IMG/VR virus record: IMGVR_UViG_3300037313_000201
Span: 1 to 42,836 of that record
DNA from: a virus
Taxonomy: Duplodnaviria > Caudoviricetes
Strand: one strand, 5' to 3'
Length of the DNA stretch: 42,836 nucleotides
Below are positions 12,768 through 33,402 of this stretch, in pieces. Position 1 is the stretch's first letter, and each line of letters opens with the position of its first letter. Under the pieces are notes generated by a model that saw only the letters and a list, made by a program, of their open reading frames with translations, did not search any database and had not been told where the DNA came from. The translations under genes were made by a program, and so were the position numbers.

Positions 12768-12988
12768 TACCACCGTCTCCCGCATGTACTGCAATACGCC
12801 TCTACGCGTACCGGGTTAGTGTTTAGTTCGTCGCTGTACCCTACCTTCATGGGCGGGTGCACAGGCACAAAGTGGCACTCGACGCATCGGGGTTTGGGAA
12901 GGTGTTCGCCGCATAGTTGGCATTTCAGCGTATCGAACTGTACTTCTCTCAAGTGCGACTTAGGATGCTTGCACCGTCTTTCGGTCAT
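12767..12988 (-). CDS. Multi-CxxC zinc-binding protein
   Basis: CKH, CQLC, CVEC and CSTC motifs. ATGA overlap with the helicase stop. Confidence 0.6.
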   Translation of the reverse strand: MTERRCKHPKSHLREVQFDTLKCQLCGEHLPKPRCVECHFVPVHPPMKVGYSDELNTNPVRVEAYCSTCGRRW

Positions 12989-14664
12989 AGTCCTAGCCCT
13001 TCTAGTGGATTGGTACCGTACAGCCCCATACCACGTAACTGTTGGTACTGGCGTAGCGCCGACCGAAACCGGGTTTGATCGTCGCCGTTCTCGCCTAAGT
13101 TCGTGAACATGAGTTCATCGGTAGTATTCCGTGTAAGTAGAGAGTGTATCCCGACAATGTTCTTTTGCCCACTTCTCGCAAGCCTTGCGTTCGTCTGCAA
13201 GTAGCGCTCTAGGCTCCACAACATAGTGAACCATACTAGATGGTGCCCCCCAAATTGTAAGTTCAAGCCGTGCGCCGCGCTCTGAGGGTGAATTAAAAGA
13301 ATAGGTATGTAACCGCCGTTCCATTGGTCAACTATCCTTTCCGCGTTCTTCTGGCCGAAGCAAGAATACGCCATGCCTTCCTTGTCGAACCGGGCTTTCA
13401 GTCGCGCCAGATCATGCTTGAAGTAATACGGCACTAGAACGTTGGCGTTCAGCATGTCGATTAGTTCAATACACTTATCCAGCTTGGCATCGTGAAGCTG
13501 TACCCAATCCTTCTTACCGAACTCGTCTGTACGGTAGATCGCACCGTTCGCGAACTGCCAGCACATCATAGACTTAGCGCCGCCATTCTGCGCCATGATA
13601 ACGTCTTTTTGCAGTTCAAGGATCGCTTCGGCCTCTAGCATGTCGTACTGCGGCCTGAGTTCGGCGGGCATGTCCACGTAATGCTTGTGCGACGGCGGCA
13701 CGGGCGCTTGTCGGTTCTTACTGGCATCACCGATGGTCTGCGGGAGTACGCCATAATCTTCGGCGTTCAACTCCACAGTAATGTCCGCAATCAATTCGTG
13801 TATCCGCTCGGGCGCTCCGTTACGAGCCTGCCAATCGGGGCGGCTTTCCGTCTCTTCTTCATTGGCTTCGTACTTGTGTACGTGTTCCGCGACTTGCTGT
13901 GTTTTGTGGAAGAACCGGTTGCGGTACGTATCGAACTTGCGGTGCAGACGTTCGCCATGATCGATTAGGTAGAACGGCGACCACAGGTTCATCATGCTTT
14001 GCGGCGATGGAGTACCCGTCAGCACGCCGCTGCGCACGAACCTGTGAGGCGGCACCCGGAGAATGTGACCGTCTGCATCCTTACCCCACGGGCGGCCCGT
14101 AATAGGATCGCGTAAGTGCGCCTGTGTGCCGTAGTTTGAGAGGACGCGAAACCGCTGCGAACGGTTGTCCTTGAACATGCTGCTTTCGTCTATCAGCATG
14201 GCGTCAAAATGGCCCCACTCGCCGCGTAAGTACTTGTGTAGCCATTTTAACCCTTCCGGGTTAATCAGGTACACGTCTGCCGGTCTAGCGAGCGCGAACG
14301 CGCGGGCCTTTTCATCGCCCCGTACTAGGCTGAAAGTCAGGTGGCGCGTGTGCGTCCATTGCTGCGCTTCCTGCCGCCACACGGTTTCGCACACCTTGAT
14401 AGGCGCTACCAGCAACACGGGGCGCTTTGTAATGCCGTGCGCTTTCCAGTTCACTATGGCGGTAAGGCCGATGATCGTCTTACCTAGGCCCATATCAATG
14501 TGTACAGCTACGCCATTCCGGCGCTCCCATTGCACGAACTGGCCGGAAGCCATATCGCGAATAGGGTACCCTTGGTACAGCTGATACGCGGCCCTAATCT
14601 GGTACGCACGCATGTGATCGCCCGTGCGTAGCAGATCGCCGGTAATGAACTGCGGTTGTGTCAC
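12985..14664 (-). CDS. SNF2-family DEAD/H helicase
   Basis: DMGLGKT, LLVAP, IDESS, LTGTP, HGLNLQ and QTNARLARSGQ motifs. Confidence 0.92.
   Translation of the reverse strand: MTQPQFITGDLLRTGDHMRAYQIRAAYQLYQGYPIRDMASGQFVQWERRNGVAVHIDMGLGKTIIGLTAIVNWKAHGITKRPVLLVAPIKVCETVWRQEAQQWTHTRHLTFSLVRGDEKARAFALARPADVYLINPEGLKWLHKYLRGEWGHFDAMLIDESSMFKDNRSQRFRVLSNYGTQAHLRDPITGRPWGKDADGHILRVPPHRFVRSGVLTGTPSPQSMMNLWSPFYLIDHGERLHRKFDTYRNRFFHKTQQVAEHVHKYEANEEETESRPDWQARNGAPERIHELIADITVELNAEDYGVLPQTIGDASKNRQAPVPPSHKHYVDMPAELRPQYDMLEAEAILELQKDVIMAQNGGAKSMMCWQFANGAIYRTDEFGKKDWVQLHDAKLDKCIELIDMLNANVLVPYYFKHDLARLKARFDKEGMAYSCFGQKNAERIVDQWNGGYIPILLIHPQSAAHGLNLQFGGHHLVWFTMLWSLERYLQTNARLARSGQKNIVGIHSLLTRNTTDELMFTNLGENGDDQTRFRSALRQYQQLRGMGLYGTNPLEGLGL
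13115..13324 (-). CDS. Candidate overprinted 69-aa protein inside the helicase
   Basis: AAGGA about 10 nt upstream of ATG. Helicase codon usage is atypical over this interval. Sequence is protein-like. Confidence 0.35.
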   Translation of the reverse strand: MERRLHTYSFNSPSERGARLELTIWGAPSSMVHYVVEPRALLADERKACEKWAKEHCRDTLSTYTEYYR

Positions 14665-14858
14665 TTGGCGCGCTTAATCCGCCAAAAACCGAACGCCTTT
14701 TGCTGGCGCGCAACGTTCTTTGCAACGCCGCGTCCGCATACCGCGTACGAGTACCCACGATACGGCACAACAGCCATATCAACCTTGCGTATGTTACGCA
14801 CGCCCGCCATGCCCGAACTGAACCTAAAGTTGTTCGTGGTACCTTTTTGTACTAGCAT
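14661..14858 (-). CDS. Small basic hypothetical protein
   Basis: SD AGGGGG. GTGA overlap with the helicase start. Confidence 0.5.
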   Translation of the reverse strand: MLVQKGTTNNFRFSSGMAGVRNIRKVDMAVVPYRGYSYAVCGRGVAKNVARQQKAFGFWRIKRAK

Positions 14859-14871
14859 AGTCACTACCCCC

Positions 14872-15138
14872 TCAGTTTGGAATAACCAGCCCGCCCGGTG
14901 GCAGGATGATTTTCTTGTTCTGGCGCTCCACGTGTTGTTCGATTACTCGACGCATCATCATAGTAAGCAAATCGAGCGGAACCGTCACAGCAGCGCTTCC
15001 GGCAACTTCGTTACCAAGAGATACAGTAACGTTCGTGTCGAGCATTTCCTGCGGCATGTCCGCCGACAACTCGACAAACGTGGCGATGCTATCCTGTCCC
15101 TTGCTGTGCAGTACCACGCGGATGAATGATCCCGACAT
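14872..15138 (-). CDS. Hypothetical protein
   Basis: SD GGGGAG and operon packing. Confidence 0.55.
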   Translation of the reverse strand: MSGSFIRVVLHSKGQDSIATFVELSADMPQEMLDTNVTVSLGNEVAGSAAVTVPLDLLTMMMRRVIEQHVERQNKKIILPPGGLVIPN

Positions 15139-15141
15139 TGT

Positions 15142-15342
15142 TTATGCTCCCCTAGCTGGGGCCGGTCCCCACTGTTCGGTTACAACAATGTCGTGCGATA
15201 AGGTACAGTTGGAATGCGCCGGGTTGACCGTACCGCTGATACGCACCTTATGGCCTTGGTCTTTCAGGTACTCCGCAAGGTGGCGCGCGAGCACGCTCTT
15301 ACCAGCCCCACGCGGACCCTTCACGCTAATCTCTATTGACAT
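15142..15342 (-). CDS. Tiny P-loop protein
   Basis: ISVKGPRGAGKS Walker A motif in only 66 aa. Confidence 0.6.
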   Translation of the reverse strand: MSIEISVKGPRGAGKSVLARHLAEYLKDQGHKVRISGTVNPAHSNCTLSHDIVVTEQWGPAPARGA

Positions 15343-15647
15343 TACTTAATCCACTTCGTCTCTTCTAGCAGTTTATGAACTAAAGCGCTCACCTTTTCGA
15401 CGGTATCGCAATACTCCCGTACATCCAAGCCGCGAGCGCGCCAATCGTTCGCTACAGCTACTTGCAGCGGGCGCGGTTCTTCGCCGGGACGTTTGAGTTC
15501 AACGAACGTAGGCGGACGCGGGGCGTACTTCGGCCACAGGATCATTCGATCCATAGGGCCGTTGTACCCCGGCGTACGCAGCTTAAGTACTTTGAAGCCG
15601 TGACGCTCCAAGCGCTTAAGCGCGTCCTCTACTACGGCCTCTTTCAC
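15342..15647 (-). CDS. VRR-NUC domain nuclease
   Basis: E..VE...G.MDR...FVELKRPG...RPLQ. GTG start overlaps the upstream TGA. Confidence 0.85.
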   Translation of the reverse strand: MKEAVVEDALKRLERHGFKVLKLRTPGYNGPMDRMILWPKYAPRPPTFVELKRPGEEPRPLQVAVANDWRARGLDVREYCDTVEKVSALVHKLLEETKWIK

Positions 15648-16045
15648 CGCCCCGCCAGTTCGAGAGTGTACCCCCACGCACGGCACAGCGCGCCGCAGTA
15701 GGCGATTTCGGGCGTAGCGCCGAACGCGAACTTTTCCATCTTCAAGCCGCCGTCGCGCCACAGGGCAAAACCGGCAGTGCATTTCAGATCGCTTGTCGTG
15801 TTAGGTAGTTCCTGCATGTACAAGAACCACTCGGGGCCGGGGTGGTACACCTTCGCCTTATCGTAGTACAGCGACGTTGTAACCACCATGCCGGGGTACG
15901 GATTGCTGCGGCCAAGGAACGTTTGCATTGGTTCCAAAAGCGCGCGCTGCATCCTGCCGTCAAGGTGAATGTCGGACGCCGTAAGGGCTTCGTACTCGGC
16001 AGCAAGACCGTACAGGATACCAGACGTTGTAGGAACTGACACCAT
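15644..16045 (-). CDS. Hypothetical phage protein
   Basis: SD GGAG. C-terminal ATPEIAYCGALCRA pattern. Confidence 0.55.
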   Translation of the reverse strand: MVSVPTTSGILYGLAAEYEALTASDIHLDGRMQRALLEPMQTFLGRSNPYPGMVVTTSLYYDKAKVYHPGPEWFLYMQELPNTTSDLKCTAGFALWRDGGLKMEKFAFGATPEIAYCGALCRAWGYTLELAGR

Positions 16046-16047
16046 GA

Positions 16048-16727: not shown

Positions 16728-16750
16728 TGTACATTTCCCTTCCCTAGCAG

Positions 16751-18934
16751 TTACTTACCGTACCGGACCATTTCAGCGCCTTCCGCTTCCACCGGCAGGT
16801 CCGTAATCCACGGTGGTAGCATACACATAAGCTGTACAAGATGGTCGCTACTGCCGAAGCCGTCGTCCGGCAACGTAATAACTTCGTCGTGTACTAGCCC
16901 AACAACCGGGTATCCGGCTTCGTCAACGTTCAAAGCCCCAATCGCGCACACGTCACGCGCCGTGCCCTGAACAATGTTTTCAACTAGCTTTCCGCCGTAA
17001 GTATCCTCACGGTAAGACTTGCCGCCCCACTCCGTACGGAAACTCAGCTTCTCGACTGTACGACCAAATCGTTCCCCAAGCCGAATTTTCGGTCGGTAGT
17101 AAGCAATATGGCGTCCGCTCGGCAGAGTGCAAATAAGCCAGTACCGTTCGGTGTCAAGCCGATGTACATGGAAAGTAACACCGGTACCGGTAAGCCCGAA
17201 CTGTTGCCCCTCATTAGCAGTGGCGAGTATTGCGGCTTTTTCCACGCGCGCCCATATGCCAGTTGTGTAGTCGGCAATCTCAGGGTGAGCGCCCCTGTAC
17301 TTTTTGACAATTTCATCGGCTTCCTCGCGTGAAATAATCAAGTCAATGTTATCACAGTACTCCACGAACGTGCGACCGCCGACGCCGAAGCCGCAACCTA
17401 GCTGCGCGGACTTGGCTTTCTGCCGGTGGCCTTCCCATTGTTTGAGTACTTTGGGCTTGCCGTTCTTGATTGTAATGCAATCCTCATACGATCCCATCAA
17501 CTGCGGATACATGTACTGCGCCGCGAACCGGGTGTACACGTCGTCACCGTTGCGAAACGCTTCCAGTACCCATAGGCACCGGGCGAGCCATACCAGCACG
17601 CGCGCTTCGATCTGCGCGTAGTCGCCTGACACAATCCGCGTGCCCTTGGGAGCCGCGATAAACCCCCTCATAGCCTTCGCCAGAGCGCCTAGGGGACGCG
17701 GGAAGCGCAGTCCGGCCTCAAACACCCATTCAGGGATCGCGGGCATTTCGTCGAGCGGCGGGCCGCCGTTATGGCCCACCATGCCGGGGTTGCTCCACCA
17801 CGGCCCTTCTAAGTACTCGAAGATCGCTTTCAGTACGGCCATATCAGGCCGGGTGAAATTCTGCGGCTGGATACGCTTGGCGCTCCACCGTAGCGTGTGC
17901 GCGCCGCCGTACAGCAGCAACCCGCGAGCGCGCCCGTCGCTATCCGTACAGCGCACCATGGCGTCTAGCTTCTTGATCGACGCTTTTGACGTTTCAAGCC
18001 GTATGCTGATTACGTCCTGCAAGTCGGCGGGCAAGTCGTCAAGCACCACGCGCTTTAGCGTCTTACTGCGCAAATCGCCTAGGTCGTCAATTTCCTCACG
18101 TTGTTTGATGTACTCAAGTATCTTATCGCGCTGTGTGGGGTTGACGCCTGTAATCTCGTTGAACCGGGCAGTATTGATTTGCGTGTAGTACTCCGAGAAC
18201 TGTATGGCGCGCTTTACAGATACGGTATCAATAGGCAGACCCCGCGTGTTAATGCGAAAGTCCAAATCCCACACCCGTTGCTCGAAATCAGGTAAGTCAG
18301 GTAATACCCTATCAATGCCATGCTCAGTAAGAACATCGTCAATGCAATAAGCCTTACCCTTCGCGTATAGTTCCGGCTGTTCATGTGGTTCATACCACAT
18401 TTCCTTGATTATGCCTAGTTTCTTCGCGCCCTTGTACTTACGCGGCTTGCAGAAGTTGTTTATGAACTCCTTGCCCGCTTCGTTCTTTAGGAAGTTCAGT
18501 TCAAGGTCACTTGCGGAGCCTTCAAGACTGGCGCGGATACCCCAATACCGCGACCGGGCGGCAGTACATGACCAATGCCGGGGCATGGGCCAGCCCCACT
18601 GACATACCAAAATCCAGAACGCAATCGCCTGTTCGAACCGCGCATTGTGTGCCACGAACTTGTCGCCGCGCTCGTGCGCCTCATGCCACCAATCGGGGCA
18701 GGGCGGCTTGTACGAGTTCAGCAGTAGGCTGTCCGGCTGTTGCGCCGGGAAGCGCGTTGCCGCGTAATCTGGATCGGCGAAGAAGTCGAGCAGCCCCGGC
18801 AGCATGTCTTTGCCGTCCGTGAAATGTGCGAGCATTAGGGGGCTTGTACTAAAATGTTGTGCGTAGGCGTCCCCGCCGATTTTCGGCAGGTCGGCCAGCG
18901 ACCGTGTTTCAAAGTCTAGGTGAGTTCGGTACAC
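16751..18934 (-). CDS. DNA polymerase family A with 3'-5' exonuclease
   Basis: Exo motifs LDFETRS, VAHNARFE, YCIDDV. Pol motifs A GDYAQIEARV, B RQKAK...LGCGFG, C VHDE. GTG start with SD GGGAAGG. Confidence 0.95.
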   Translation of the reverse strand: MYRTHLDFETRSLADLPKIGGDAYAQHFSTSPLMLAHFTDGKDMLPGLLDFFADPDYAATRFPAQQPDSLLLNSYKPPCPDWWHEAHERGDKFVAHNARFEQAIAFWILVCQWGWPMPRHWSCTAARSRYWGIRASLEGSASDLELNFLKNEAGKEFINNFCKPRKYKGAKKLGIIKEMWYEPHEQPELYAKGKAYCIDDVLTEHGIDRVLPDLPDFEQRVWDLDFRINTRGLPIDTVSVKRAIQFSEYYTQINTARFNEITGVNPTQRDKILEYIKQREEIDDLGDLRSKTLKRVVLDDLPADLQDVISIRLETSKASIKKLDAMVRCTDSDGRARGLLLYGGAHTLRWSAKRIQPQNFTRPDMAVLKAIFEYLEGPWWSNPGMVGHNGGPPLDEMPAIPEWVFEAGLRFPRPLGALAKAMRGFIAAPKGTRIVSGDYAQIEARVLVWLARCLWVLEAFRNGDDVYTRFAAQYMYPQLMGSYEDCITIKNGKPKVLKQWEGHRQKAKSAQLGCGFGVGGRTFVEYCDNIDLIISREEADEIVKKYRGAHPEIADYTTGIWARVEKAAILATANEGQQFGLTGTGVTFHVHRLDTERYWLICTLPSGRHIAYYRPKIRLGERFGRTVEKLSFRTEWGGKSYREDTYGGKLVENIVQGTARDVCAIGALNVDEAGYPVVGLVHDEVITLPDDGFGSSDHLVQLMCMLPPWITDLPVEAEGAEMVRYGK
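18214..18393 (-). CDS. Candidate overprinted 59-aa membrane protein inside the polymerase (+1 frame)
   Basis: SD AAGGAA 7 nt before ATG. MNHMNSRNYTRRVRLIALTMFLLSMALIGYYLTYLISSNGCGIWTFALTRGVCLLIPYL. Local T-ending codon skew in pol. Confidence 0.5.
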   Translation of the reverse strand: MNHMNSRNYTRRVRLIALTMFLLSMALIGYYLTYLISSNGCGIWTFALTRGVCLLIPYL

Positions 18935-18951
18935 GCCCGCTGGCCTTCCCG

Positions 18952-19173
18952 TCAGAACTTGCCGGTGTTCAGGAAGTTCGCCGCCGCCGCGCACGCATCC
19001 GCCGTATCGGTCGCCACAGCCTCGAAAGACTGCGCCACCTTGACCGTCTGCGTGGCCTCGATCACGTACCGGATATTCCCGGCTAGTGCGAAGCCGTTGC
19101 TCACCTGACGCACGTTCACGTCATAGTGCGGCACGGTGCCCGCGATTGCTTCCTGAAACGTTGCTTCGTCCAT
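18952..19173 (-). CDS. Hypothetical protein
   Basis: SD AGGA, high-GC codon usage. Confidence 0.6.
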   Translation of the reverse strand: MDEATFQEAIAGTVPHYDVNVRQVSNGFALAGNIRYVIEATQTVKVAQSFEAVATDTADACAAAANFLNTGKF

Positions 19174-19324: not shown

Positions 19325-20059
19325 TTAAAGCATAGACGGCAGGCCGCCGCCCAGTGCGCCGAAACCCGGAACCGCAGTGTTAACGGGCGTAGCGCCCGGT
19401 GGCGGTACGATACCGGCGAGTGCGTCGAACTGTGACTTGGCATCGGGACGACCGCCGCCACCGAGCCGTTCGCCGTCCCATGCTTTCTGCACGTTGTTCA
19501 GGCGCACGCTGATGTAGCGCTTGCCGCTGTACTCGGTGCCGAACATGATACCAGACGCGCGGGCGAAGGAACCACTGTACACGTCAACCGGGAGCAAATC
19601 CTCGCGGTTCGGGCCGATGATACCGGGCTGTCCGCCCTGCGGTATCCACTTGGTAGGATCGGCGGGGTTGCGTACCATCTTCGCCTTCGATTTGATCGAA
19701 AGGTACACATGGCCGCGCAGTTCTTCCTTACCCTTCGTATTGTGTTCGGGATTGTCGCCGTCGCGAAGGAAGGGCTGTACGTGAAAGAAGTTCGGATCGT
19801 ACGACCCTACGGGCCATTTCAGGTCGCGCGCCTGCGCCGCCAAAGTACGGAGCGGGATAAGCGACGTATCCAGTTCCGCCTTCGGCCACATAAGCGTAAC
19901 CTTGTAGTGCATAATCGGCGCACCCGTTTCCGGGTCGAACTTCGGCTTCGGCGGGTTGCCGTCCGTGTCCTGCTGCGGCTCCGCAAGGCTCTCGAATACC
20001 ACACGCCCGATAGGCGTAAGGAACTCGATGAACTTCGGCTCGTTACCAGTTCTACTCAT
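19325..20059 (-). CDS. ssDNA-binding protein (DUF2815 / T7 gp2.5-like)
   Basis: PFLRDGD, VYSG..AR, ISVRLNNVQK..DGERLGG. Sits between nuclease and polymerase. Confidence 0.85.
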   Translation of the reverse strand: MSRTGNEPKFIEFLTPIGRVVFESLAEPQQDTDGNPPKPKFDPETGAPIMHYKVTLMWPKAELDTSLIPLRTLAAQARDLKWPVGSYDPNFFHVQPFLRDGDNPEHNTKGKEELRGHVYLSIKSKAKMVRNPADPTKWIPQGGQPGIIGPNREDLLPVDVYSGSFARASGIMFGTEYSGKRYISVRLNNVQKAWDGERLGGGGRPDAKSQFDALAGIVPPPGATPVNTAVPGFGALGGGLPSML

Positions 20060-21240
20060 AGCAATACCGTTCCATTCTGCTGATTGCCGGGGCCTGTAAT
20101 TGCACCGAACTCACTACCCCGCTTGTGAGCCGGTCGCGCGTCTGTAGCCCGTTCGAGTGTCAGGCCACCTACGTTCTCTTTGACGTACTCGGAAACATGG
20201 TTTTCCCATACTTGCTTCCATGCGCCACGCGGTAGGTTGTTCGCGCGGCTCCACGCCTTAATCAAATCTTCCACGCCCTTAACGCTCAGTGGCGATTGCG
20301 TGTACATTTTGTGTTCCGGTACATTGAATACGTCCCGCAGTACGCCTCGTACCGGCGCGTATTCTCCGAACTCGCGATCCTTACGGCCTTTGACGCATTT
20401 GTACCCGCGCAAGTTGCGGTCCATCTGCATAATACGCACCATGGCCGCCTTGCGCAGTTCATCGCGAATGCCTTGCAGAATGTCCGCGTGATCCAAAGCC
20501 TGCGCTAGCTGTTCGTCGGTTAGTGCGTTCACGTCGGCGGGGAACCACGCATCGGCAGCTTCGCTCTGCGCGTACTCTAGGAACGTGGCACAGTTACCAC
20601 GGTGGGGGCAGTACGACTTTTTGCAGTGCTTACCCGCCACGAATATGCTTTCGTTGGCGATGCTCCACGCTATCTGCGCACACCACTCAGTAATGTCAGC
20701 TTCGGTAACGGTATATGTACGTATCGGGCCGTCAATATGTGACGCATTAGGCTGCAAGACGGTGATGTAATAAACAGACCTTGGACCGTACTTGGCGATT
20801 GCCCCAAGCAGGTAAGTAAGCATCTGTTTGTTCTTCTCCACGTCCACGACCACGTAGCCATTTTTGTAATCGGCAACATGTAGAACGGACGGCGATACAA
20901 ATGTAATATCGGCAGTTCCGAACTCACCGGTCTGTGGTATGTCATACGACTGCTCCGCGTACACCTTGCACTCGGGGCCGTAGAGCGCACGCTGCTGTGC
21001 AATCCACTCCATCACGTTTGCAAGGTTTTCGTTCAAGTCCTCGTCCTCTGTAACCGGCTCCATAACGCCGAAGAGGATAGCTGTTTCAAGCTGATCGTGT
21101 GCGTAATCACCCTTAGTACTGGCATCACTTTCGTCGTTGGGGTACAACTGTGCGGCCAGTGAAGAACCGGGACACGAACCCCAGCGTTCGGCAGCGCTCG
21201 GGGGCCGCCTCTTCGCATGTGCCTTAGCTGGAATGTTCAT
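20056..21240 (-). CDS. DUF2800 Cas4-like PD-(D/E)XK exonuclease
   Basis: PSAAERW..CPGS, G...H, FGTAD, ADYKNG, NKQM..Y.LG and HC...YCPHR..C. Confidence 0.88.
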   Translation of the reverse strand: MNIPAKAHAKRRPPSAAERWGSCPGSSLAAQLYPNDESDASTKGDYAHDQLETAILFGVMEPVTEDEDLNENLANVMEWIAQQRALYGPECKVYAEQSYDIPQTGEFGTADITFVSPSVLHVADYKNGYVVVDVEKNKQMLTYLLGAIAKYGPRSVYYITVLQPNASHIDGPIRTYTVTEADITEWCAQIAWSIANESIFVAGKHCKKSYCPHRGNCATFLEYAQSEAADAWFPADVNALTDEQLAQALDHADILQGIRDELRKAAMVRIMQMDRNLRGYKCVKGRKDREFGEYAPVRGVLRDVFNVPEHKMYTQSPLSVKGVEDLIKAWSRANNLPRGAWKQVWENHVSEYVKENVGGLTLERATDARPAHKRGSEFGAITGPGNQQNGTVLL

Positions 21241-21929: not shown

Positions 21930-22370
21930 TTAGATGATCGAAGCCGGGGTAGCGGCGGGCTGCTGTTGCGCGGCAGCGGCAGCGGTGAACTGCTGGATTA
22001 CTTGCTGGAACCGGGCGTACAGTTCACCGTACTGGTGCGGCTGTGTTTCCGGCAGAGCATTGATCCCCATCGCGGCCATTTGCTGCTGTAGCGCGGCCTT
22101 GATGTTCGGATCGCCGATGTGCGGAGTAATCAGCGTCGTCAGCATGTCCGCCGTCGCCGGGGGATAGCCAACGGGCTGCTGAGCGCCGCCAAGCACGCCA
22201 AGCCCGCCAGCTTGCGCCTGAGGCTGTGCGAGCGTCTGAGGCTGGTGCATAGCCTGATTGGCCTGCTGCTGCTGTGCGAGCGGCTGAGCGGCCACAGCGG
22301 CGACGTTTGCCCCGCCGCCAGCCAGAAGCCGGTCTAGCTTCTCTTCGATGCGTTCGAGAATGCCTGTCAT
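21930..22370 (-). CDS. Q/A-rich hypothetical protein of the replication module
   Basis: SD AAGGAAAGG. Low-complexity middle and C-terminal helical domain. Confidence 0.65.
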   Translation of the reverse strand: MTGILERIEEKLDRLLAGGGANVAAVAAQPLAQQQQANQAMHQPQTLAQPQAQAGGLGVLGGAQQPVGYPPATADMLTTLITPHIGDPNIKAALQQQMAAMGINALPETQPHQYGELYARFQQVIQQFTAAAAAQQQPAATPASII

Positions 22371-22397: not shown

Positions 22398-24626
22398 CTA
22401 CATGCGCGCCAGTTGGTACCCGTGCTTAGTACTTGTAATCTCACCTTGGAACTTCATTTCTGTTAGCGCCTTGGTGATACGGGCCTTACTGACATTCGGC
22501 AGGAGCGCGGCGAGTTCCTGCTGATTTACGAACGGGTGAGCGCCTAGGATCGCACGTATAGCTACCTTGGCGTCTTGACGCGCGGCTGTAAGCCAACCGC
22601 CCCGCTCAGCATCAAAAGTCATGTCCACTTCGTAATCATGCGGTACGTCGCGACCGCTTATGTACAGCTTGCGACTTTCGTTTTCGTCCTGTACACCACG
22701 TCTGCCTTTGATGGAGATTACACCATCGGAGCCGCCAGTATTACCAGCACTACCTGTCACGTCCTCTAGAAAGTCGGCGCTGTCGTTACCCGCCAAGCCT
22801 TTCTTTTCGTGCGTGACCGGAATTATAAGTACTTCCTTGCGGGCCGCCAGCTTGGTTATCGGCATCATCGCTTCATAGTCGCGAGCGTACACGTCACGGT
22901 TCGTACTGTGTCCCTTGAAATGGGCCAGTGTGTCGATCACTATCATCGAAGTGTTCGGGAACTGTTCTAGGTACTGCTCTAGCGCATCAACCCCGGCCTC
23001 ACCCTTGGGGAACATGGCGAGCGTTTCAGCGGCCTCTTGCGGATCGGAAACGTACAGCTTGCCCTGCGCGTTCTCCGACATACCACCGGTCCAATACCGA
23101 AAGTTTGACAGATCGGGCGGGCATACGTCGAACGTCTGCAACGTACGAATACGCTCGCGTATGCGGCGCTCGTTATCTTCTAATCCTAGGAACAGTACAT
23201 CGCCTTGTTCACAGTTCCATTCTAGGAACTTACTGCCTGTGGCAACCGCCATGCCTAGCTGTAGCGCCAGCCATGTCTTGCGCATCTTAGGGCGCGCGGC
23301 CAGAATAATGTTCCCGGTAGGTAACACGCCCGGTATGACGAACTTGGTGTTCTTGAACGTCATACGTTGCAGGTCGGCTAGTGAACGGATATTTTTGAAG
23401 TTGTATTTCGGGCGCGGGCTATCAATTCCCGGTAGCACGCCAGCTTGCACGCTATGTACACTCGGTTGTTCAATCGGCGTGAACTCTGTAACCGGCGCTT
23501 TGAGTACGTCCGCAAGGCGGATCGCGGCAGCTTCCTTGTCTCCATCGGTACAGAACTCCGCTATGACGCTTATGGGCGTGCGCCGCCCTTCCGTGGCGTC
23601 ACCTTGGTCCGCTACCGCGAAGTCCTTGATACCAAGCGGCCACGGGTGGATTGTAAGATCTTCCTCGAAGATACGTCCTAGGTCGTTACTGGCAATGCGG
23701 TATCCCTCTTTATAGGGGCGTGCGTCAGGAAAGAATACTGGTACCCATTCCGGTATTCGTCGCATGGCATGGTCATTGAGCATCTTGTACTTGCGTTCAT
23801 CCGCTGGATACTCCGTACTAGTCTTGCTTGCGAGCGTCCCGGTCGGTCGGTCCTGTGCCTGTAAGAGATTTTCATGTGCCGCAATAAACGCCTGTACTTG
23901 GGCCAGCTTGACCACGGAAAGATGATGCACATGCGCGAGAATTTTAGCTTTCCGGTGGGGCCTGTCCGGTACACTATCACCTTTCCGCGACCATGTACCG
24001 GGAACTCGCCAAATGCGCGCAGCATTAAAAACGGTAATATCGACTTTGACCGTTGCCGTACTGAACTTGGCGGAAAGGCACTTGAGGAACTTGTGGATCG
24101 CATCGCGTACTTCTTCCGTGTTCGGTTCGTTGATCGGGTACAGGATATGCGCGCCATTGCCGCTGTCATTGTACATGGGATCGCAAAAGCCGTACAGCAG
24201 GGACAGGTAGCCCATGATCTGTTGCGCCTTGGCGTGCGCCTCAGAGTGTTCCGCGTCGGTCGCGGATATGCCACTCGGGCGTACAGGGTCCACGTCTATC
24301 AGGAGCCAATGACGGCGCGTCACGTCGGGGTCCATGGACGTGACTTGCGCCCATGGCGTAATGCGGTTAGCGGAGCGCGCCAGTAGGTCCGGCTGTACCG
24401 GGTTAGGCGTCAGGTATATGCCTAGGTAGTCGCCTTCAAGGCCAGCTAGGGCGGTGGCGGCAGCGGCGGGGCTATTGAAGTACCCGGCGTCGGTACGCTT
24501 GCGGTTCTTGCCTAGCAGGCGGATTTCAAAGACGGACCCGGCCTGTACTATGGCCGCGATTGACGCCTCTAGTTCCTGATAGACATGTTGCGCCGACAAA
24601 TCAGGCCCCCGCCTGTACGATCCCAA
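22398..24626 (-). CDS. Primase-helicase (AEP-like N-terminus plus AAA_25/RepA-like helicase)
   Basis: IDVD, DSGNGAH, RIWRVPGT; Walker A ARPKMRKT, LFLGLED, IVIDTL. Start codon uncertain. Confidence 0.85.
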   Translation of the reverse strand: MGSYRRGPDLSAQHVYQELEASIAAIVQAGSVFEIRLLGKNRKRTDAGYFNSPAAAATALAGLEGDYLGIYLTPNPVQPDLLARSANRITPWAQVTSMDPDVTRRHWLLIDVDPVRPSGISATDAEHSEAHAKAQQIMGYLSLLYGFCDPMYNDSGNGAHILYPINEPNTEEVRDAIHKFLKCLSAKFSTATVKVDITVFNAARIWRVPGTWSRKGDSVPDRPHRKAKILAHVHHLSVVKLAQVQAFIAAHENLLQAQDRPTGTLASKTSTEYPADERKYKMLNDHAMRRIPEWVPVFFPDARPYKEGYRIASNDLGRIFEEDLTIHPWPLGIKDFAVADQGDATEGRRTPISVIAEFCTDGDKEAAAIRLADVLKAPVTEFTPIEQPSVHSVQAGVLPGIDSPRPKYNFKNIRSLADLQRMTFKNTKFVIPGVLPTGNIILAARPKMRKTWLALQLGMAVATGSKFLEWNCEQGDVLFLGLEDNERRIRERIRTLQTFDVCPPDLSNFRYWTGGMSENAQGKLYVSDPQEAAETLAMFPKGEAGVDALEQYLEQFPNTSMIVIDTLAHFKGHSTNRDVYARDYEAMMPITKLAARKEVLIIPVTHEKKGLAGNDSADFLEDVTGSAGNTGGSDGVISIKGRRGVQDENESRKLYISGRDVPHDYEVDMTFDAERGGWLTAARQDAKVAIRAILGAHPFVNQQELAALLPNVSKARITKALTEMKFQGEITSTKHGYQLARM

Positions 24627-24915: not shown

Positions 24916-25668
24916 TTACAGGATCGAAGGCAGCGCGGCCTGCGCCTTGCTCTGCTTCACGCCGAGCATGATCTGCGCCGGTTCGATGTACCGCGTATCG
25001 CGCTGCTTTTCCAGAGCCTTACGGAGTTCGGCCTGCTCCGCCTCGGGCGCCGCAGCGACCTTGGCATCGATCTGCGCATTGAGGTACTTGATACCGTCGC
25101 CGCCGACTTCCTTGGTGGCGTCGGGGAAGCCGTACGGACGCGTGCCGCCCTTGCCGTTGTCCACGGTACGGCCCGCCGCCTTGTTGGCTTCGTACACGGC
25201 CCGCGTAACGACGTTGGTGACAGCCGCCACCAGCGGGTCTTTCGGCGCGCGGCTCTTGCCCTCGCCCTTCTTGCCCTGCTGGCGCAGTTCGCCCTTGAGC
25301 AAGTCGGCAATGGCCTCGCCGGCCTTTTCGAGCGGATTGAGCGCAGCCGGGGCCTCGCCAGTCGGGCGGTCGCCCTCGGGCTTGGGAACCGCCGTCTGCA
25401 ACGGATCGGCGGCCTGCGCGGCGTCGTACGCGGCCCATGCGAGATACGGCGCACGCGCGGCCCGGTTGCGGACCATGGCGACGTTCACGCGGTTGGTAAC
25501 GATCGTGCGCACCTGAGCCTTCAGGAGTTCCAGCCGGGCGTCCTGCGGGATCGCCGCCAGATCGATGCTGACGGTCTGGTTCTCGCCGCCTTCGGTCGTC
25601 GCGGTGTTGGCGACCTCGATTGCGAGGTTCAGGTCCGGCGCGGCTTCGGTGTTCGTCTGTTCGGTCAT
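24916..25668 (-). CDS. Probably highly expressed Ala/Lys-rich hypothetical protein ending LPSIL
   Basis: Strong C/G-ending codon bias, its own promoter, AAGGA SD sites and a downstream terminator. Confidence 0.75.
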   Translation of the reverse strand: MTEQTNTEAAPDLNLAIEVANTATTEGGENQTVSIDLAAIPQDARLELLKAQVRTIVTNRVNVAMVRNRAARAPYLAWAAYDAAQAADPLQTAVPKPEGDRPTGEAPAALNPLEKAGEAIADLLKGELRQQGKKGEGKSRAPKDPLVAAVTNVVTRAVYEANKAAGRTVDNGKGGTRPYGFPDATKEVGGDGIKYLNAQIDAKVAAAPEAEQAELRKALEKQRDTRYIEPAQIMLGVKQSKAQAALPSIL

Positions 25669-25770: not shown

Positions 25771-26352
25771 TTATAGTACAGGCGGCAGCTTGCCCGGTTC
25801 GTCGTCCTCGTTATCCACAGGGCGCGTGCCGACGAACATGGATACGCCTTCCGGCAATCCTTCCGGCTGTACTTGCTGGAAGCCAGCGGCTTGCAGATGC
25901 TCGCCAAGTTCGCCAGCGTCGAGCGGGGCCGCGTCGATTTCGTCATGTACCTGAGTGTACGCTGTGCCGCGATTTCCGAATAGGTTCTCGCCAGTACCCG
26001 GCCAGCGCACGTACGTTGTGTTGTCGTCCGTCGTCGTGGCCTCAATGACCATGCCCGCCAGTGTGGGCGGCGCGTCGAACGGCAGGCCCGCCGACTTGAG
26101 TGTGTTAAGTACCACGAACAGCGAGCGTGCAATGGCCTTGATGTAATCGCCCCATGCCCCATGGAACTTGTTGAACTTGACGGCAAAGCGCCCACTCTCG
26201 ACGTAGTACATAAGCGACACCATGCCGCCCGAACTTTCAAAGTGTACCACGTCGCCTGCGCCCGTGTTGCGCGCCCGGTTGACGTTGCGCGCCTTCCACG
26301 TGCGCTTGTCATTCTGCTGCATGAAAGCAGCGGCTATTTCAGGTCCGTTCAT
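25771..26352 (-). CDS. Hypothetical protein with acidic tail ending LPPVL
   Basis: SD GAAGGG, 193 aa. Confidence 0.65.
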   Translation of the reverse strand: MNGPEIAAAFMQQNDKRTWKARNVNRARNTGAGDVVHFESSGGMVSLMYYVESGRFAVKFNKFHGAWGDYIKAIARSLFVVLNTLKSAGLPFDAPPTLAGMVIEATTTDDNTTYVRWPGTGENLFGNRGTAYTQVHDEIDAAPLDAGELGEHLQAAGFQQVQPEGLPEGVSMFVGTRPVDNEDDEPGKLPPVL

Positions 26353-27460: not shown

Positions 27461-27461
27461 G

Positions 27462-28034: not shown

Positions 28035-28050
28035 TACTCCACCCCTTCCG

Positions 28051-28808: not shown

Positions 28809-28824
28809 TTCCCTTCCTTGCTTC

Positions 28825-28898: not shown

Positions 28899-28929
28899 CC
28901 CCTTTCTATGTCTGTTCCGAGCGGGCCGA

Positions 28930-29286: not shown

Positions 29287-29299
29287 TGTCTGTACTCCC

Positions 29300-29557
29300 T
29301 TAAATGGCCGCTTCGCCAATCTGAAACACAACGCCAGTGCGCGCCGGGACGATAGGCGTAAGCACGTAGTACCCCGGTTCAGCCTGCAACAGCCGGTGCG
29401 TCTTATGATGCTGTACAAGGCTGCTCGCATAGCCGTGCGTTGTGTCTATGCAGATCGGGCTACCTTTGTCGTTCAGGTATGGCAGCTGAACGCTGAAATG
29501 CGCTGCCGTGTACCGGTCGGGATCGTTGAACAGTTCTTCTACCTGCTGCGCGTTCAT
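29300..29557 (-). CDS. Hypothetical protein
   Basis: ATGA coupling. Confidence 0.55.
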   Translation of the reverse strand: MNAQQVEELFNDPDRYTAAHFSVQLPYLNDKGSPICIDTTHGYASSLVQHHKTHRLLQAEPGYYVLTPIVPARTGVVFQIGEAAI

Positions 29558-29784
29558 TTCATGTATCCTTCCATTGCGTTAGGTGCACATTCGCCTTCGG
29601 GCACGTCCTCAAAGGCGAATAGCCAGCCGTGAACGATTATGTACTCTTGTTGATCCATATCCCACGCGACGAACGAGCCGTCTAAGTCTGTATCGGGCTT
29701 AATCAGCAAGTTCAGGTCCGGCCCGTCGCTAGTGCCGAAAACTTCGCGGGTGTATCCGTCGAGTACTGCCACGTTGTCAGTCAT
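29554..29784 (-). CDS. Small acidic hypothetical protein
   Basis: SD AGGGGAG. D/E-rich. Confidence 0.6.
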   Translation of the reverse strand: MTDNVAVLDGYTREVFGTSDGPDLNLLIKPDTDLDGSFVAWDMDQQEYIIVHGWLFAFEDVPEGECAPNAMEGYMK

Positions 29785-29799
29785 GTCCCGTTACTCCCC

Positions 29800-30051
29800 T
29801 TAGTTCTTCGGTGTGATGCTGATTGCGAACGCGCCGCTATCCATCAGCAGGCTACGGATCGCGCCCTCGGGCGTGGCCTGATAGTTCCCGCAGCCAAAAC
29901 GCGGGGCGCTGGCGTACCATGACGGGTTGCCCTGTGTATCCTGCTGTGGGGTGACGCGGTAATCGCCCCACTCGCCCTTAGACGTATCCGCGAAATCCTC
30001 TCCGTGCAGGGTCCACTCCGTAGCCGCATGGCAGCATGTAACATGAAACAT
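29800..30051 (-). CDS. Hypothetical protein
   Basis: Operon packing. Confidence 0.55.
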   Translation of the reverse strand: MFHVTCCHAATEWTLHGEDFADTSKGEWGDYRVTPQQDTQGNPSWYASAPRFGCGNYQATPEGAIRSLLMDSGAFAISITPKN

Positions 30052-30056
30052 GTTCG

Positions 30057-30431
30057 TTACTTCCCAAGAAACCGGTTAAGTTCGCGCGCCGTACCGCGTG
30101 CCAGCACGGCATAGCGCGGAGCGAAGAACCATTTACGCAGCAGCGTGCCGTCTATCGCGTACAGCGTCCATACGGGGCCGGTGCGGCTGATAACCGGGCG
30201 GCGCTGCAAGGTGCCTACCGGACGATCATTGCGGTACACCGTGGCATACTGCGCAGCGTCATCTAGGCGGCCCATGAAGTCGAAGCTATCCACGCCCGTG
30301 ACGTACGGGTTAGTTGCGTCATATTCATTGGCCTCAGTGCGAACGTCCATCATTCCCCGTACTCCCATAGCAGCGGCCTCGCGGGCCTCATTTCCCAACG
30401 CCCTTAGATCATAGTTCAGGTACGTCCACAA
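30057..30431 (-). CDS. Hypothetical protein
   Basis: ORF at the head of an early sub-operon. Start uncertain. Confidence 0.5.
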   Translation of the reverse strand: MWTYLNYDLRALGNEAREAAAMGVRGMMDVRTEANEYDATNPYVTGVDSFDFMGRLDDAAQYATVYRNDRPVGTLQRRPVISRTGPVWTLYAIDGTLLRKWFFAPRYAVLARGTARELNRFLGK

Positions 30432-30710
30432 GCCCCTATTTTCAGTACATGCTCAGCCGTGCCTGTACTGCCACACTCCCCGCCAACTGCACCTTTTAGA
30501 ACCGCGCGCCGTGCGGGCGCACACGCGTAGCAAGTACTATGCCAATCGCAACATGCCCGTAATCGCCCGGAAACGGCCCGTACAGCGCCTCTAGTACTTC
30601 CGGGTACGATTACACCTAGAAGGCCCCTAGAGGCGCTGTACGGCGATTTCCCCTGTTTGTTCACGTTACAGACCTGTCAAGCGGAACGGTTGTGTACATG
30701 CGCGGAACGC

Positions 30711-31151
30711 TCACTTTTCGCCGTACTGATGCAAGTTTACCTCGTCGCCCTCGAACGGCGGCAGTGATGGAGCGCGTACGTAGTGCAGTGCCACGGATCG
30801 CGAGCGGAAGTTGTCCGGCACACGCGCCGCCATGGGCAACACGTACTTATGATGGAGCGCGTTCAGTTCATCGAACCGGGGCCATTCGGCCTTGTCGTGC
30901 ATTGTGATCGGCTCAGCTTCGCTCGGGATCGCCGCCGCGTAACGCATCCTGCCGTTCTCCACGATGTACTCATGTTCCGTCAGCAGTTCTCGCCCGCCCT
31001 TCCGCGTCTGTATCTTTACGTACAGCACGCCTGTGACCGGGTGCCGCAGCATCCACGCATCGAAATGCCAGCATGTGCCTCTGCCGATTAACTCCATCGC
31101 CAACATGGATGGACGTACATGAGGACGTGTAGGGATTGCATTGTAAGCCAT
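30711..31151 (-). CDS. First early gene, hypothetical (MAYNAIPT...)
   Basis: SD GAGGT before ATG at 31151. Confidence 0.6.
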   Translation of the reverse strand: MAYNAIPTRPHVRPSMLAMELIGRGTCWHFDAWMLRHPVTGVLYVKIQTRKGGRELLTEHEYIVENGRMRYAAAIPSEAEPITMHDKAEWPRFDELNALHHKYVLPMAARVPDNFRSRSVALHYVRAPSLPPFEGDEVNLHQYGEK

Positions 31152-32088
31152 TGCCAGACCTCGCGAGCTAAAGTTGCACAGGTTGTTTTGGCTCAGCCGT
31201 ACAGATCGGCCCGTAATCGCGTGCAATTATATCTCGCGACGAAACAACGGGGTGGAAACTGTCGAGACTGAACGTGTTTAACAGCATAGTTTCGTATCCC
31301 CGTTAGTCAAAAACGGCGGATTTCCTCGGGAAAATATAAGTGCGATCTGTCGAACGCGTTGGGGTCTATATGTGTGTAGGTGTCGCCGGGAATAGATACG
31401 AATAGACGGAGATATCTACGTATATATGTGTGAAGTTGCCCTATATATACATACCTACATATTAGGGGTTACTGGCACGGTGTGCAGTTTTAAGTGAGAT
31501 ATTATAGACGAAGTACACGAATAGCCGTGCAGGCAAGCAGTACAGGTGTGGATAGTGGCGTTTCCCTAGCTAACGCGCTCGAAACCTCGTTGAAATGTTG
31601 CGAAGAGTTCGCAGTAAGGAAAGTATGATAAGGTCCATTATGTTAAGTACAATACGTTATAACATTACATGTTCCCCCTATGTGCTAGAAATGTTCACGT
31701 TTGGATCGCACCCCCACCGGGTCGAGCGGCAGGCGGGGTGTACTTATAGGTGTATCCCAACGCACACAATATAGTACAAAAATGAACACTAGAGTTTGTA
31801 CACCCCACCCCCGGTAATTGCGATCTAACGTCCCTAAGCGCGCTGAGTACACCCCACCCCCATTGTAATTTTCGGTTACACATCCGAGAGAGTACTTATC
31901 CACAGGCAATACAGCAACTTCTCACTTAAAAATTCATAATTGCTATCCCGCTCTCGCGCGTATAAAGAGGCCAGAGCGGAGCGCTCCGGGTCTAGGCCCT
32001 TCCTCTCGGAGCGCTCCCACGGGGCGGGATAACCAAGTACATTACACACCCGTGGCAAGGCGAAGGAAAGGGCCGGAAGGGTACTGGT
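31152..32088. other. Divergent non-coding control region (candidate origin / genome end)
   Basis: ~0.9 kb, AT-richer, between oppositely oriented arms. Contains repeats and a DnaA box. Confidence 0.6.
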
Positions 32089-32442
32089 ATGGACAAGGCA
32101 CACATACAGGCCATAGTGGAAGGTCGCGATTACAAGGCACCCCTCAAAGCGATCAACGAAACAGTCGAGGGTCTGGTACACTGCGCGCTGGTCGTACGTG
32201 AAAGCGAACACGGTGTACTGCTGACACCCGAGGCCCGTGCGTTGGACGCTATCGGCGTACAGGTGGAGCGCGAACTACGTAACCGTAAGGAAATGATCCT
32301 CGCGCTTACCGACCGGCTGAACACCGTGGAAGCTGAACTGAAAGCTGCGCTGAACCGCATGGATGAAATGAATAAGGCGGCAGCGTACGCTATGGCCCCG
32401 CAAGAACTGCCGGGTCAAACAACCGTCGAATTACAAGCCTAA
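32089..32442 (+). CDS. Coiled-coil hypothetical protein
   Basis: SD GGAAGGG. First gene of the + arm. Confidence 0.65.
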   Translation: MDKAHIQAIVEGRDYKAPLKAINETVEGLVHCALVVRESEHGVLLTPEARALDAIGVQVERELRNRKEMILALTDRLNTVEAELKAALNRMDEMNKAAAYAMAPQELPGQTTVELQA

Positions 32443-32450
32443 GGCTCCCC

Positions 32451-32524
32451 GTACCGCAGTCTCCCTACCCCACTGCGGTACACCCCCGACCGGGCGGCAA
32501 CTTCCCGTCTCCTGCCGCCCGGTC
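32451..32524 (+). ncRNA. Tandem hairpins with C-rich (anti-SD-like) loops, candidate sRNA
   Basis: Perfect 10-bp and 12-bp stems. Loops CTCCCTACCCC and ACTTCCCGTCTCC. Confidence 0.35.
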
Positions 32525-32595
32525 CCCTCTCAAACATTAACCATGTTGCAACCCGTTGAAATCGGGCGTACATCGTATGCCGGGAGAGGGTTTCC

Positions 32596-32790
32596 ATGGG
32601 GAAGTACGCAACGCTAACCGGCGACCTCGTACGAAGGGGCGTTACCATGCGCCCGGTGCGGATCATCGGCCCTGACGGCGAGTTCCTGAGGGTCATGCAG
32701 CCGGTCGAGCAAGACGTGGCCCAAGAGCGCCGCCAGTGCCGCATCTGCGGCCATTCAATCGCTGTGGATAAGTCGCCCGCTGCGGCTTGA
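32596..32790 (+). CDS. Small hypothetical protein with CRICGH
   Basis: SD GGGAGAGGG. Confidence 0.55.
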   Translation: MGKYATLTGDLVRRGVTMRPVRIIGPDGEFLRVMQPVEQDVAQERRQCRICGHSIAVDKSPAAA

Positions 32791-32818
32791 CAATTTTGAA
32801 CGGACCCGGCCAGCCTAG
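32762..32818 (+). promoter_or_regulatory. Candidate late promoter upstream of terS with DnaA box
   Basis: CTGTGGATAA-15 nt-TTGACAATTTTGAACGG, 15/17 identical to the site at 38445. Confidence 0.55.
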
Positions 32819-32841
32819 CCCTCTGAGCGGGGGTTCAGGGG

Positions 32842-33402
32842 TTGACACGTACACAGGCCACACTTGACGCGTTAGTACAGGCGTTGCAGGTAAACTGCGG
32901 CGACCGTTTCGACGCGTGCCAGCGTGTACGGGTATCCCCCATGTTCCTACAGCAGTGGATGAAGGACGACAAGGACGTACACGCACAGATTACGGAAGCC
33001 GAGCGTGTCGGCGCCCTCTCGTTACAGTCCGAAGCGATCCGCCGCGCCGTTCATGGCGTCGAGAAAGGCGTGTACTTCAAAGGCGAGCGGGTCGATACCG
33101 AAATCCAGTACAGTGACGGCCTGCTTACGACGCTGCTAAAAGGCCGCCTGCCGGAAACGTTCGGTGCCGACGCCGCCGAGAACCGGGGCAATACGTTCAA
33201 CGGCCCCACACAGATCAACATCATGCCGCGTGCGAACTCGTACGACGAGTGGCTGGCGATGAAAGACGCCACGCTTACACGCCGTGACAAGCTAGACGCC
33301 GAAGATGCAGCCGCCAAGGCTCTGCCCGCACCCCCCGTTACGCTGGAAGCAGAAGCGGCGTACAGGATCATGGCTAACCCGCTAGAAGGGTTGGGCCTGT
33401 GA
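32842..33402 (+). CDS. terS: Terminase small subunit
   Basis: N-terminal HTH-like segment, EAIRRAVHGVEKGVYFKGERV...YSDGLL..LLKG..PE.F signature. Confidence 0.85.
   Translation: MTRTQATLDALVQALQVNCGDRFDACQRVRVSPMFLQQWMKDDKDVHAQITEAERVGALSLQSEAIRRAVHGVEKGVYFKGERVDTEIQYSDGLLTTLLKGRLPETFGADAAENRGNTFNGPTQINIMPRANSYDEWLAMKDATLTRRDKLDAEDAAAKALPAPPVTLEAEAAYRIMANPLEGLGL

What the first reader, a model, noticed from the sequence alone, without database searches (positions are those of the whole stretch)
12985..33402. Identical 8-residue C-terminus NPLEGLGL on the SNF2 helicase and terS
Seen: the helicase (12985-13011, -) ends AAT CCA CTA GAA GGG CTA GGA CTA TGA and terS (33376-33402, +) ends AAC CCG CTA GAA GGG TTG GGC CTG TGA. 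The peptide is identical, but five of eight codons differ synonymously, which points to protein-level selection rather than a recent DNA duplication. Inference: both proteins bind the same pocket (terL, polymerase, primase or a host factor), coupling or handing off replication/recombination to packaging. I know of no described precedent.
Basis: partly seen in the sequence, partly recalled or inferred. Interest (0 to 1): 0.8.

Follow-up and report, generated by a model that had tools for sequence, protein, structure and literature searches.

The report
Shared docking tail across phage proteins
The helicase and the small DNA-packaging subunit of this uncultured phage end in the same eight amino acids, one spelling of a short tail that several of its other proteins also carry and that related phages respell together, likely a common docking tag for a still unidentified partner that would tie DNA packaging to replication.

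Summary
Confirmed: the SNF2-like helicase and TerS both end NPLEGLGL, with 5 of 8 codons different. The tail is conserved after a variable linker in 117/120 TerS and 89/120 helicase homologs. It is absent from 59/59 distant helicases. Within a genome the two tails share a subtype in 12/16 cases (0/20,000 shuffles), but this rests on only 3-4 clade-level switches.

It is not a private helicase-TerS code. The general form is hydrophobic-x-[G/D/S]-hydrophobic-(x)-Leu. It also ends SSB (LPSML), two unknown proteins (LPSIL, LPDIL) and, in relatives, the primase-helicase, the DUF2800 nuclease and an HNH nuclease. The E-G pair doubles as the ribosome-binding site of the overlapping next gene, which partly explains the exact identity.

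Best reading: a multi-client docking tag, most likely read by the phage's own family-A polymerase, which never carries it. The partner is inferred, not shown. Rivals are the host clamp, a degron and TerL. Shared tails are known (T4 gp45 ligands, T7 gp4); one on TerS was not found in print.

The parts
12985..14664 (-). SNF2-like phage helicase, 559 aa; tail carrier
   Evidence: PHROG 62, PF00176; AF2 model folded to helix 529-543, coil after it
12985..13011 (-). helicase tail NPLEGLGL + stop; the stop overlaps the ATG of ORF 12767-12988; GAAGGG (13002-12997) lies 8 nt upstream of that ATG
   Evidence: pLDDT 49-61 over the last 19 residues
13021..13038 (-). inner copy of the motif in the helicase (LRGMGL), at the end of the last helix
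   Evidence: its middle residue follows the outer subtype: Gly in 16/23 type A, Asp in 35/45 type B
32842..33402 (+). small terminase (TerS), 186 aa from TTG; tail carrier
   Evidence: PHROG 4044 E 1.9e-17; homologs align from residue 1-3
33376..33402 (+). TerS tail NPLEGLGL + stop; the stop overlaps the GTG of ORF 33399-33599; GAAGGG (33385-33390) lies 8 nt upstream
12582..12785 (-). 67-aa Cys-rich unknown protein ending LPDIL (same tail family)
   Evidence: ortholog in L005 (67% identical) keeps LPDIL after a changed linker
19325..20059 (-). gp2.5-like/Enc34 SSB ending LPSML
   Evidence: PHROG 112, PF10991; orthologs end MRDVL, LPDIL, LPDIL in G011-G013
24916..25668 (-). conserved unknown helical protein ending LPSIL
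   Evidence: present in all near-complete relatives; AF2 mostly helical, no fold match
20056..21240 (-). DUF2800 nuclease; ends GTVLL (doubtful form here; LPTIL in G001, LKDVL in G011)
21930..22370 (-). unknown protein ending ASII (short form of the tail)
25771..26352 (-). unknown protein ending LPPVL (weak form; not kept in most orthologs)
41625..42350 (+). head-region unknown (PHROG 20268) ending LPII (short form)
22398..24626 (-). primase-helicase; no tail here, but LPDVL/LPDLI/LRDVL in clade-D relatives
   Evidence: PF13481, PHROG 19
16751..18994 (-). family-A DNA polymerase; candidate reader of the tail (inferred); never carries it
   Evidence: PF00476; none of 120 homologs ends in the tail, 99 end RYGK
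34664..36169 (+). large terminase; rival candidate reader; no C-terminal tail
   Evidence: PHROG 2/979, PF03237
33965..34345 (+). truncated TerL-ATPase paralogue without Walker A; no tail
   Evidence: 30% identity over 74 aa to TerL 57-129, E 1e-8

Best explanation
NPLEGLGL is one spelling of a short hydrophobic tail shared by several unrelated proteins of this phage clade, and it likely acts as a docking tag that plugs TerS, the helicase, SSB and others into one pocket, most likely on the phage's own DNA polymerase. Shown: the tail is appended to unrelated genes after a variable linker, is kept at protein level, and is respelled together within a lineage. Inferred: the carriers would compete for, or take turns at, one hydrophobic pocket. 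TerS would thereby be brought to newly made DNA, and the helicase to the same place to clear branches or bound proteins. The Glu-Gly pair and the last codon are additionally shaped by the ribosome-binding site and start codon of the overlapping next gene. Odds: about 0.75 that it is a docking tag for a common partner; about 0.4 that the partner is the phage replisome, polymerase first.
For: Conservation: 117/120 TerS and 89/120 helicase homologs fit the motif. In TerS, positions -1, -4, -6 carry 3.9, 2.8, 2.5 bits against 0.7-1.3 in the linker. Protein-level selection: five Leu codons at -1 in each of the two main subtypes, and both Phe and both Asp codons. Co-variation: last-6 BLOSUM sum 261 against 51.5+-41.8, 0/20,000 shuffles, 16 genomes; same subtype 12/16; G016 has VLKDIL on both. 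Many carriers: 19/812 other called genes end in the strict motif against 134/179,410 internal positions and 1/224 in four distant phages. G011 has L-x-D-V-L on TerS, helicase, SSB, DUF2800 and primase. An HNH nuclease carries it in G024. Clade-specific: 0/59 distant helicases, 0/21 distant TerS, 0/189 genes of three phages with the same head module. The tail is coil at low confidence in AF2. For the polymerase: it never has the tail. The PolA + gp2.5-like SSB + primase-helicase set is the T7 layout, in which gp4 tails bind gp5 (PMC12593628 passages).
Against: Nothing here identifies the partner; the polymerase is chosen by analogy and by absence, and VRR-NUC, TerL, portal and capsid also lack the tail. 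Co-variation rests on 3-4 changes on the tree. It is not significant within clade B (p 0.09-0.13) and is modest within the D group (p 0.019). Four of 16 genomes mismatch, and 31/120 helicases have lost or blurred the tail while TerS keeps it. T7 tails are acidic; these are not. Small early proteins and a head-region protein are odd clients for a polymerase. The motif patterns were defined after seeing the tails, and orthologs are not independent counts.
Confidence: 0.4

Rival explanations
1. The tail docks on a host factor, most plausibly the beta sliding clamp, which would bring all carriers to replicating DNA.
For: Five- and six-residue forms alternate (L-x-D-V-L, F-x-G-I-x-L), as clamp motifs do (six-residue form recalled). 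[DS]-hydrophobic-hydrophobic ends match the end of QL(S/D)LF (PMC9690074 passages). M-LPD[LI]L begins 21/120 helicases, so a free carboxyl end seems not to be needed. The identified carriers act on DNA. An unchecked note reports a similar F-x-D-[IV]-[LF] tag in an unrelated phage.
Against: The first motif position is hydrophobic, not Gln. No canonical clamp motif was found in the polymerase of any of the 20 clade records scanned. Subtypes follow phage clades, which fits a phage-encoded pocket better than a conserved host one.
Confidence: 0.2
2. The tail is a C-terminal signal for a host protease or chaperone (nonpolar-tail degron) that times turnover of these proteins.
For: Nonpolar ends on floppy linkers, including small early proteins and short -II/-IL/-VL forms: 75/698 genes against 1/224 in controls. 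Nonpolar C-termini are known degrons (recalled, no paper read).
Against: Position-specific conservation six residues deep, matched respelling of helicase and TerS, and N-terminal and inner copies exceed what such degrons need.
Confidence: 0.15
3. TerL (or the TerS ring itself) is the reader: the tail is the TerS-TerL contact, and the helicase and others mimic it to hand DNA to the packaging motor (closest to the first reader's idea).
For: TerS keeps the tail most strictly (117/120 against 89/120). TerS C-termini bind TerL in P22 and lambda (PMC9611059 passages). T4 gp17 binds gp32 and gp55 (PMC9026906 passages). A truncated TerL paralogue lies between terS and terL.
Against: SSB, primase, DUF2800 and small early-strand proteins carry the same tail family, which is hard to square with a late motor. 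The TerL N-terminus, the TerS-binding part in P22, is short and unconserved here.
Confidence: 0.12
4. The likeness is an mRNA-level by-product of translational coupling: an embedded Shine-Dalgarno and an ATGA/GTGA overlap fix similar codons at both gene ends.
For: Both window tails have GAAGGG 8 nt before an overlapped start. Gly-type TerS tails overlap a downstream ORF in 20/29 cases against 6/25 for Asp-type (p 0.001). GGG is 11/24 at that Gly against 138/563 in TerS bodies.
Against: It cannot fix the hydrophobic residues at -6, -3 and -1, which vary synonymously. Gly is kept without overlap in L103, L123 and L242. Asp-type tails and N-terminal copies exist without it.
Confidence: 0.05

Closest known systems
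T4/RB69 gp45 clamp-binding tails of gp43, gp55, gp33 (LDFL(F)), with the internal loop of T4 ligase
   Same: Unrelated proteins share a short hydrophobic motif on a variable linker; it can be terminal or internal and is interchangeable (PMC2988020, PMC9690074, PMC6212786 passages).
   Different: Different spacing; no clamp family among 60 window ORFs scanned. The polymerase is not a carrier here. TerS and an SNF2-like helicase are carriers, which I did not find described.
T7 gp4 (and gp2.5) acidic C-terminal tails binding gp5 polymerase
   Same: Same replication layout: PolA, gp2.5-like SSB, primase-helicase; tails on SSB and (clade D) primase-helicase, none on the polymerase. gp4-gp5 contact from PMC12593628 passages; that the gp2.5 tail mediates binding is recalled.
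   Different: Tails here are hydrophobic, mostly with one acidic residue at most, and end in Leu. They extend to TerS, a second helicase, nucleases and small proteins.
Bacterial beta-clamp binding motif QL(S/D)LF
   Same: Short motif ending in [SD]-hydrophobic-hydrophobic, with a form one residue longer (longer form recalled).
   Different: No Gln; a hydrophobic residue stands where Gln should be, and a variable one where Leu should be.
TerS C-terminal moiety binding TerL (P22 residues 140-162; lambda)
   Same: Flexible C-terminal extension of TerS (PMC9611059 passages).
   Different: There it is private to TerS; here the end is shared with replication proteins.

Membership tests
Phage SNF2-like helicase (PHROG 62 / PF00176) | Profile match over both domains, with Walker A/B and motif VI | tested here: met
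   E 3.5e-110, residues 38-532; GLGKT, DESS, QTNARLARSGQ
Small terminase (PHROG 4044) | Profile match and position upstream of TerL | tested here: met
   E 1.9e-17, residues 3-132; no Pfam hit and no PDB relative under E 0.1
T4 gp45-type clamp-binding tail | Short hydrophobic motif on a variable linker shared by unrelated proteins | tested here: met
T4 gp45-type clamp-binding tail | LDFL(F) sequence | tested here: not met
   tails read EGLGL, GIEL, EGLL, PDIL
T4 gp45-type clamp-binding tail | Phage-encoded sliding clamp | tested here: not met
   no clamp family among 60 window ORFs in PHROGs; the largest conserved unknown is mostly helical; a very diverged clamp among small unknowns is not excluded
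T7-type acidic tail | PolA + gp2.5-like SSB + primase-helicase, polymerase without tail | tested here: met
T7-type acidic tail | Strongly acidic tail | tested here: not met
   the motif is hydrophobic, with mostly one acidic residue at most
T7-type acidic tail | Binding to the polymerase | not testable with these tools
   no complex model or assay obtained
Beta-clamp binding motif | Gln at the first position | tested here: not met
   first position F/L in six-residue and L/M in five-residue tails of 54 TerS
Beta-clamp binding motif | Binding to DnaN | not testable with these tools
   host unknown; no model obtained
TerL-binding TerS C-terminal moiety | Binding to the TerL N-terminal region | not testable with these tools
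   no complex model obtained

The most novel reading that the evidence does not exclude
This phage clade runs a genome-wide address code: one pocket on the replisome reads a five- or six-residue tail that lineages respell in concert. Any gene that gains the tail (helicase, SSB, primase, nucleases, small early proteins) joins a replication-packaging factory. TerS is the obligatory client, so packaging starts by TerS docking on the replication machinery rather than by a free search for a pac site. A second shared peptide (GHNGGP) on polymerase and TerL may be a parallel code.
Probability: 0.3. Interest if true: 0.8.

Novelty: new variant of a known kind. Interest (0 to 1): 0.56.

Why it matters
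How packaging finds replicating DNA is known in outline only for T4 (gp17-gp55-gp45-gp32). A defined 5-8 residue tail on TerS, shared with replication proteins, makes the question testable with peptides. Four natural subtypes give built-in specificity controls, and the concerted respelling should point to the pocket once it is modelled. Unchecked notes of this scan report the same habit with other tails in unrelated phages, so the principle may be general; that raises its reach and lowers the uniqueness of this case.

Tried and rejected
The profile search over protein representatives was not available either, so distant relatives of ORF 24916 were not seen.

Recent DNA duplication of the tail: rejected, 6/24 bases differ and the flanks are unrelated. 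Assembly artefact: rejected, both tails recur in other contigs. A DNA element under LPDIL: rejected, codons vary freely.

The primase found no relatives in viral contigs. The helicase alignment scan was swamped by distant families: 2 of 80 loci were close; the rest served as controls. No cultured relative reached 60% identity. Four metagenome loci could not be searched whole.

ORF 24916 as hub: no family and no fold match. ORF 41625: only unnamed viral clusters. No RNA holder listed. Contigs laid on the helicase end gave nothing usable on the tail, because variant contigs end in identical flanks by construction. The capsid-protein tree did not finish. The inner-copy counts were faulty and are replaced (108 of 120 helicases parsed). 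Papers: passages only, no whole texts and no supplements; PMC5872134 passages added nothing.
Full report
Setting. The window is a whole 42.8-kb virus record, estimated complete. The plus strand carries a podophage-type head and tail block. The minus strand carries a replication block: primase-helicase, DUF2800 nuclease, gp2.5-like SSB, family-A polymerase, VRR-NUC-type endonuclease and SNF2-like helicase. No cultured relative reaches 60% identity. Leaving out three possible source runs, seven soil or rhizosphere studies hold half or more of a 9-kb stretch. The host is unknown.

The observation. Both genes end in NPLEGLGL and a stop, as stated; 5/8 codons and 6/24 bases differ. These are the only exact matches in six frames, and chance is of order 1e-7 or less. 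The exact degenerate pattern hit three viral contigs: two are copies of these genes, and one lies antisense to a long ORF of an unrelated virus.

Conservation. Among the best 120 of 236 TerS homologs, 117 end in hydrophobic-x-[G/D/S]-hydrophobic-(x)-Leu/Ile; among the best 120 of 6,921 helicase homologs, 89 do. The linker before the tail varies in length and sequence: 0.7-1.3 bits per position, against 2.3-3.9 bits at -6 and -4 to -1 in TerS. Four subtypes occur: A (P[FL]EGLGL), B (FxGIxL), C (LxGLL) and D (LxD[VI]L). Among 82 distinct TerS from 116 loci, 54/61 close ones (120 bits or more) fit and 0/21 distant ones do. None of 59 distant helicases has it; most end at the last helix. AF2 places the helicase tail in low-confidence coil after helix 529-543. 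The helicase has an inner copy whose middle residue follows the outer subtype (16/23 Gly in A, 35/45 Asp in B). M-LPD[LI]L also begins 21/120 helicases.

Co-variation. Sixteen records hold both C-termini: the window and 15 relatives fetched in stretches. One further record with a distant helicase (G018) was kept as a control. Within-genome similarity of the last six residues is 261 against 51.5+-41.8 for shuffled pairings, with 0/20,000 reaching it. Subtypes agree in 12/16. Examples are G005 FAGIDL/FAGIEL, G011 LEDVL/LRDVL and G016 VLKDIL/VLKDIL. G002, G010, G012 and G014 do not agree. The signal is clade-level: 3 changes for the helicase and 4 for TerS on the tree, p 0.09-0.13 inside clade B and 0.019 inside the D group. 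Seven further pairs inferred from equal contig length agree in 4 cases; in the other three the helicase tail is short or blurred.

It is a genome-wide tail. In the window, SSB ends LPSML, ORF 24916 ends LPSIL, and a 67-aa ORF at 12582 ends LPDIL, which its 67%-identical ortholog keeps after a changed linker. Shorter forms end ORFs 21930, 25771 and 41625. In clade D the same LxD[VI]L ends TerS, helicase, SSB, primase-helicase and DUF2800, and an HNH nuclease in G024. Leaving out helicase and TerS, 19/812 called genes in 20 clade records end in the strict motif, against 134/179,410 internal positions, 1/224 genes of four distant phages and 9/4,654 uncalled ORFs. Three of those nine belong to gene families seen in other genomes. 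Three phages with the same head module but other replication genes have 0/189. Caveats: my own simple gene caller, patterns set after seeing the tails, and non-independent orthologs. Subtypes interconvert within orthologs (ORF 24916 LPSILGL in G005; SSB FGGVTF in G008), which favours one pocket over two (inference).

An mRNA contribution. Both window tails overlap the start of the next gene, with GAAGGG 8 nt upstream. Gly-type TerS tails overlap a downstream ORF in 20/29 cases, Asp-type in 6/25 (p 0.001), and GGG is enriched at that Gly. This probably explains why these two genes use E-G. It cannot explain the hydrophobic positions, which vary synonymously, and Gly persists without overlap in L103, L123 and L242.

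Mechanism. A short motif on floppy ends of unrelated proteins, respelled in concert, is best read as a ligand for one pocket (inference). The partner was not identified. I rank the phage polymerase first. It never has the tail (0/120 homologs), the gene set is the T7 layout in which gp4 tails bind gp5 (PMC12593628, passages), and clade-linked subtypes suit a phage-encoded pocket. The host clamp comes next: five/six-residue alternation and terminus-independence fit, but Gln is missing (PMC9690074, passages). A degron and TerL follow. TerS C-termini bind TerL in P22 and lambda (PMC9611059, passages), T4 gp17 binds gp32 and gp55 (PMC9026906, passages), and TerS is the strictest carrier. But SSB, primase and early proteins are unlikely TerL clients.

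Comparison. It works like the T4 gp45 ligands, whose C-terminal motifs sit on variable linkers and are interchangeable (PMC2988020, PMC6212786, passages), and like the T7 tails. It is a member of neither: no LDFL, no clamp family among 60 ORFs scanned, no acidic run. Nine searches of the held library (listings, with passages of seven papers) showed no description of a tail shared by TerS and replication proteins. Subscription journals are largely missing from that library. Earlier notes of this scan report the same habit with other tails in unrelated phages; I did not check them and count them as leads only.

Verdict.

Noticed in passing
window 17759-17779 (-), polymerase residues 406-412; TerL N-termini in L192, L194, L197, L201, L093, L110, L112, L120; polymerase N-terminus in L188: A second shared peptide, [ILMVF]GHNGGP, sits in a variable loop of the polymerase (G[HD]N in 69/120 homologs) and at the floppy N-terminus of TerL in several relatives. 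Unexplained; possibly a second docking code linking polymerase and TerL.
   Followed up: partly
window 33965-34345 (+): Truncated TerL-ATPase paralogue without Walker A between terS and terL, also in L089, L090, L242, L093; possible dominant-negative or decoy.
   Followed up: partly
helicase N-termini in L185, L191, L195, L200, L202 and 21/120 homologs: Clade-B helicases begin with M-LPD[LI]L, the pentamer found at other proteins' C-termini.
   Followed up: partly
window 34664-36169 (+), last 20 residues: TerL keeps a T-[LM]-x-D-[LI]-[WF] motif near its variable C-terminus across 32 relatives; candidate portal-binding element (inference).
   Followed up: no
window 38904-40082 (+) and 38464-38904 (+): The putative scaffold has S-[LV]-R-D-x-[LI] twice (N-terminal part and C-terminus), and the ORF before it ends in a similar G-x-D-I-x-x-A helix; likely coat-binding elements.
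   Followed up: no
window 19325-21240 (-): SSB and DUF2800 share an S-[QE]-F-[DG] motif just before their tails, conserved in most relatives.
   Followed up: no
window 24916-25668 (-): Conserved 250-aa helical protein in all near-complete relatives, with no family, atlas or fold match.
   Followed up: partly
G001-G015, G022, G024 early region (e.g. G003 29533-32370): Most relatives appear to carry three adjacent ORFs of about 200, 430 and 280 aa that the window lacks (judged by size and position).
   Followed up: no
L125 6031-8544 (+): TerL ORF of 837 aa against about 500 in relatives; possible intein or insertion.
   Followed up: no
L277 / G032: A phage contig with the same genes as G008 lies in a MAG titled Burkholderiaceae; may be mis-binning, not taken as host evidence.
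   Followed up: no
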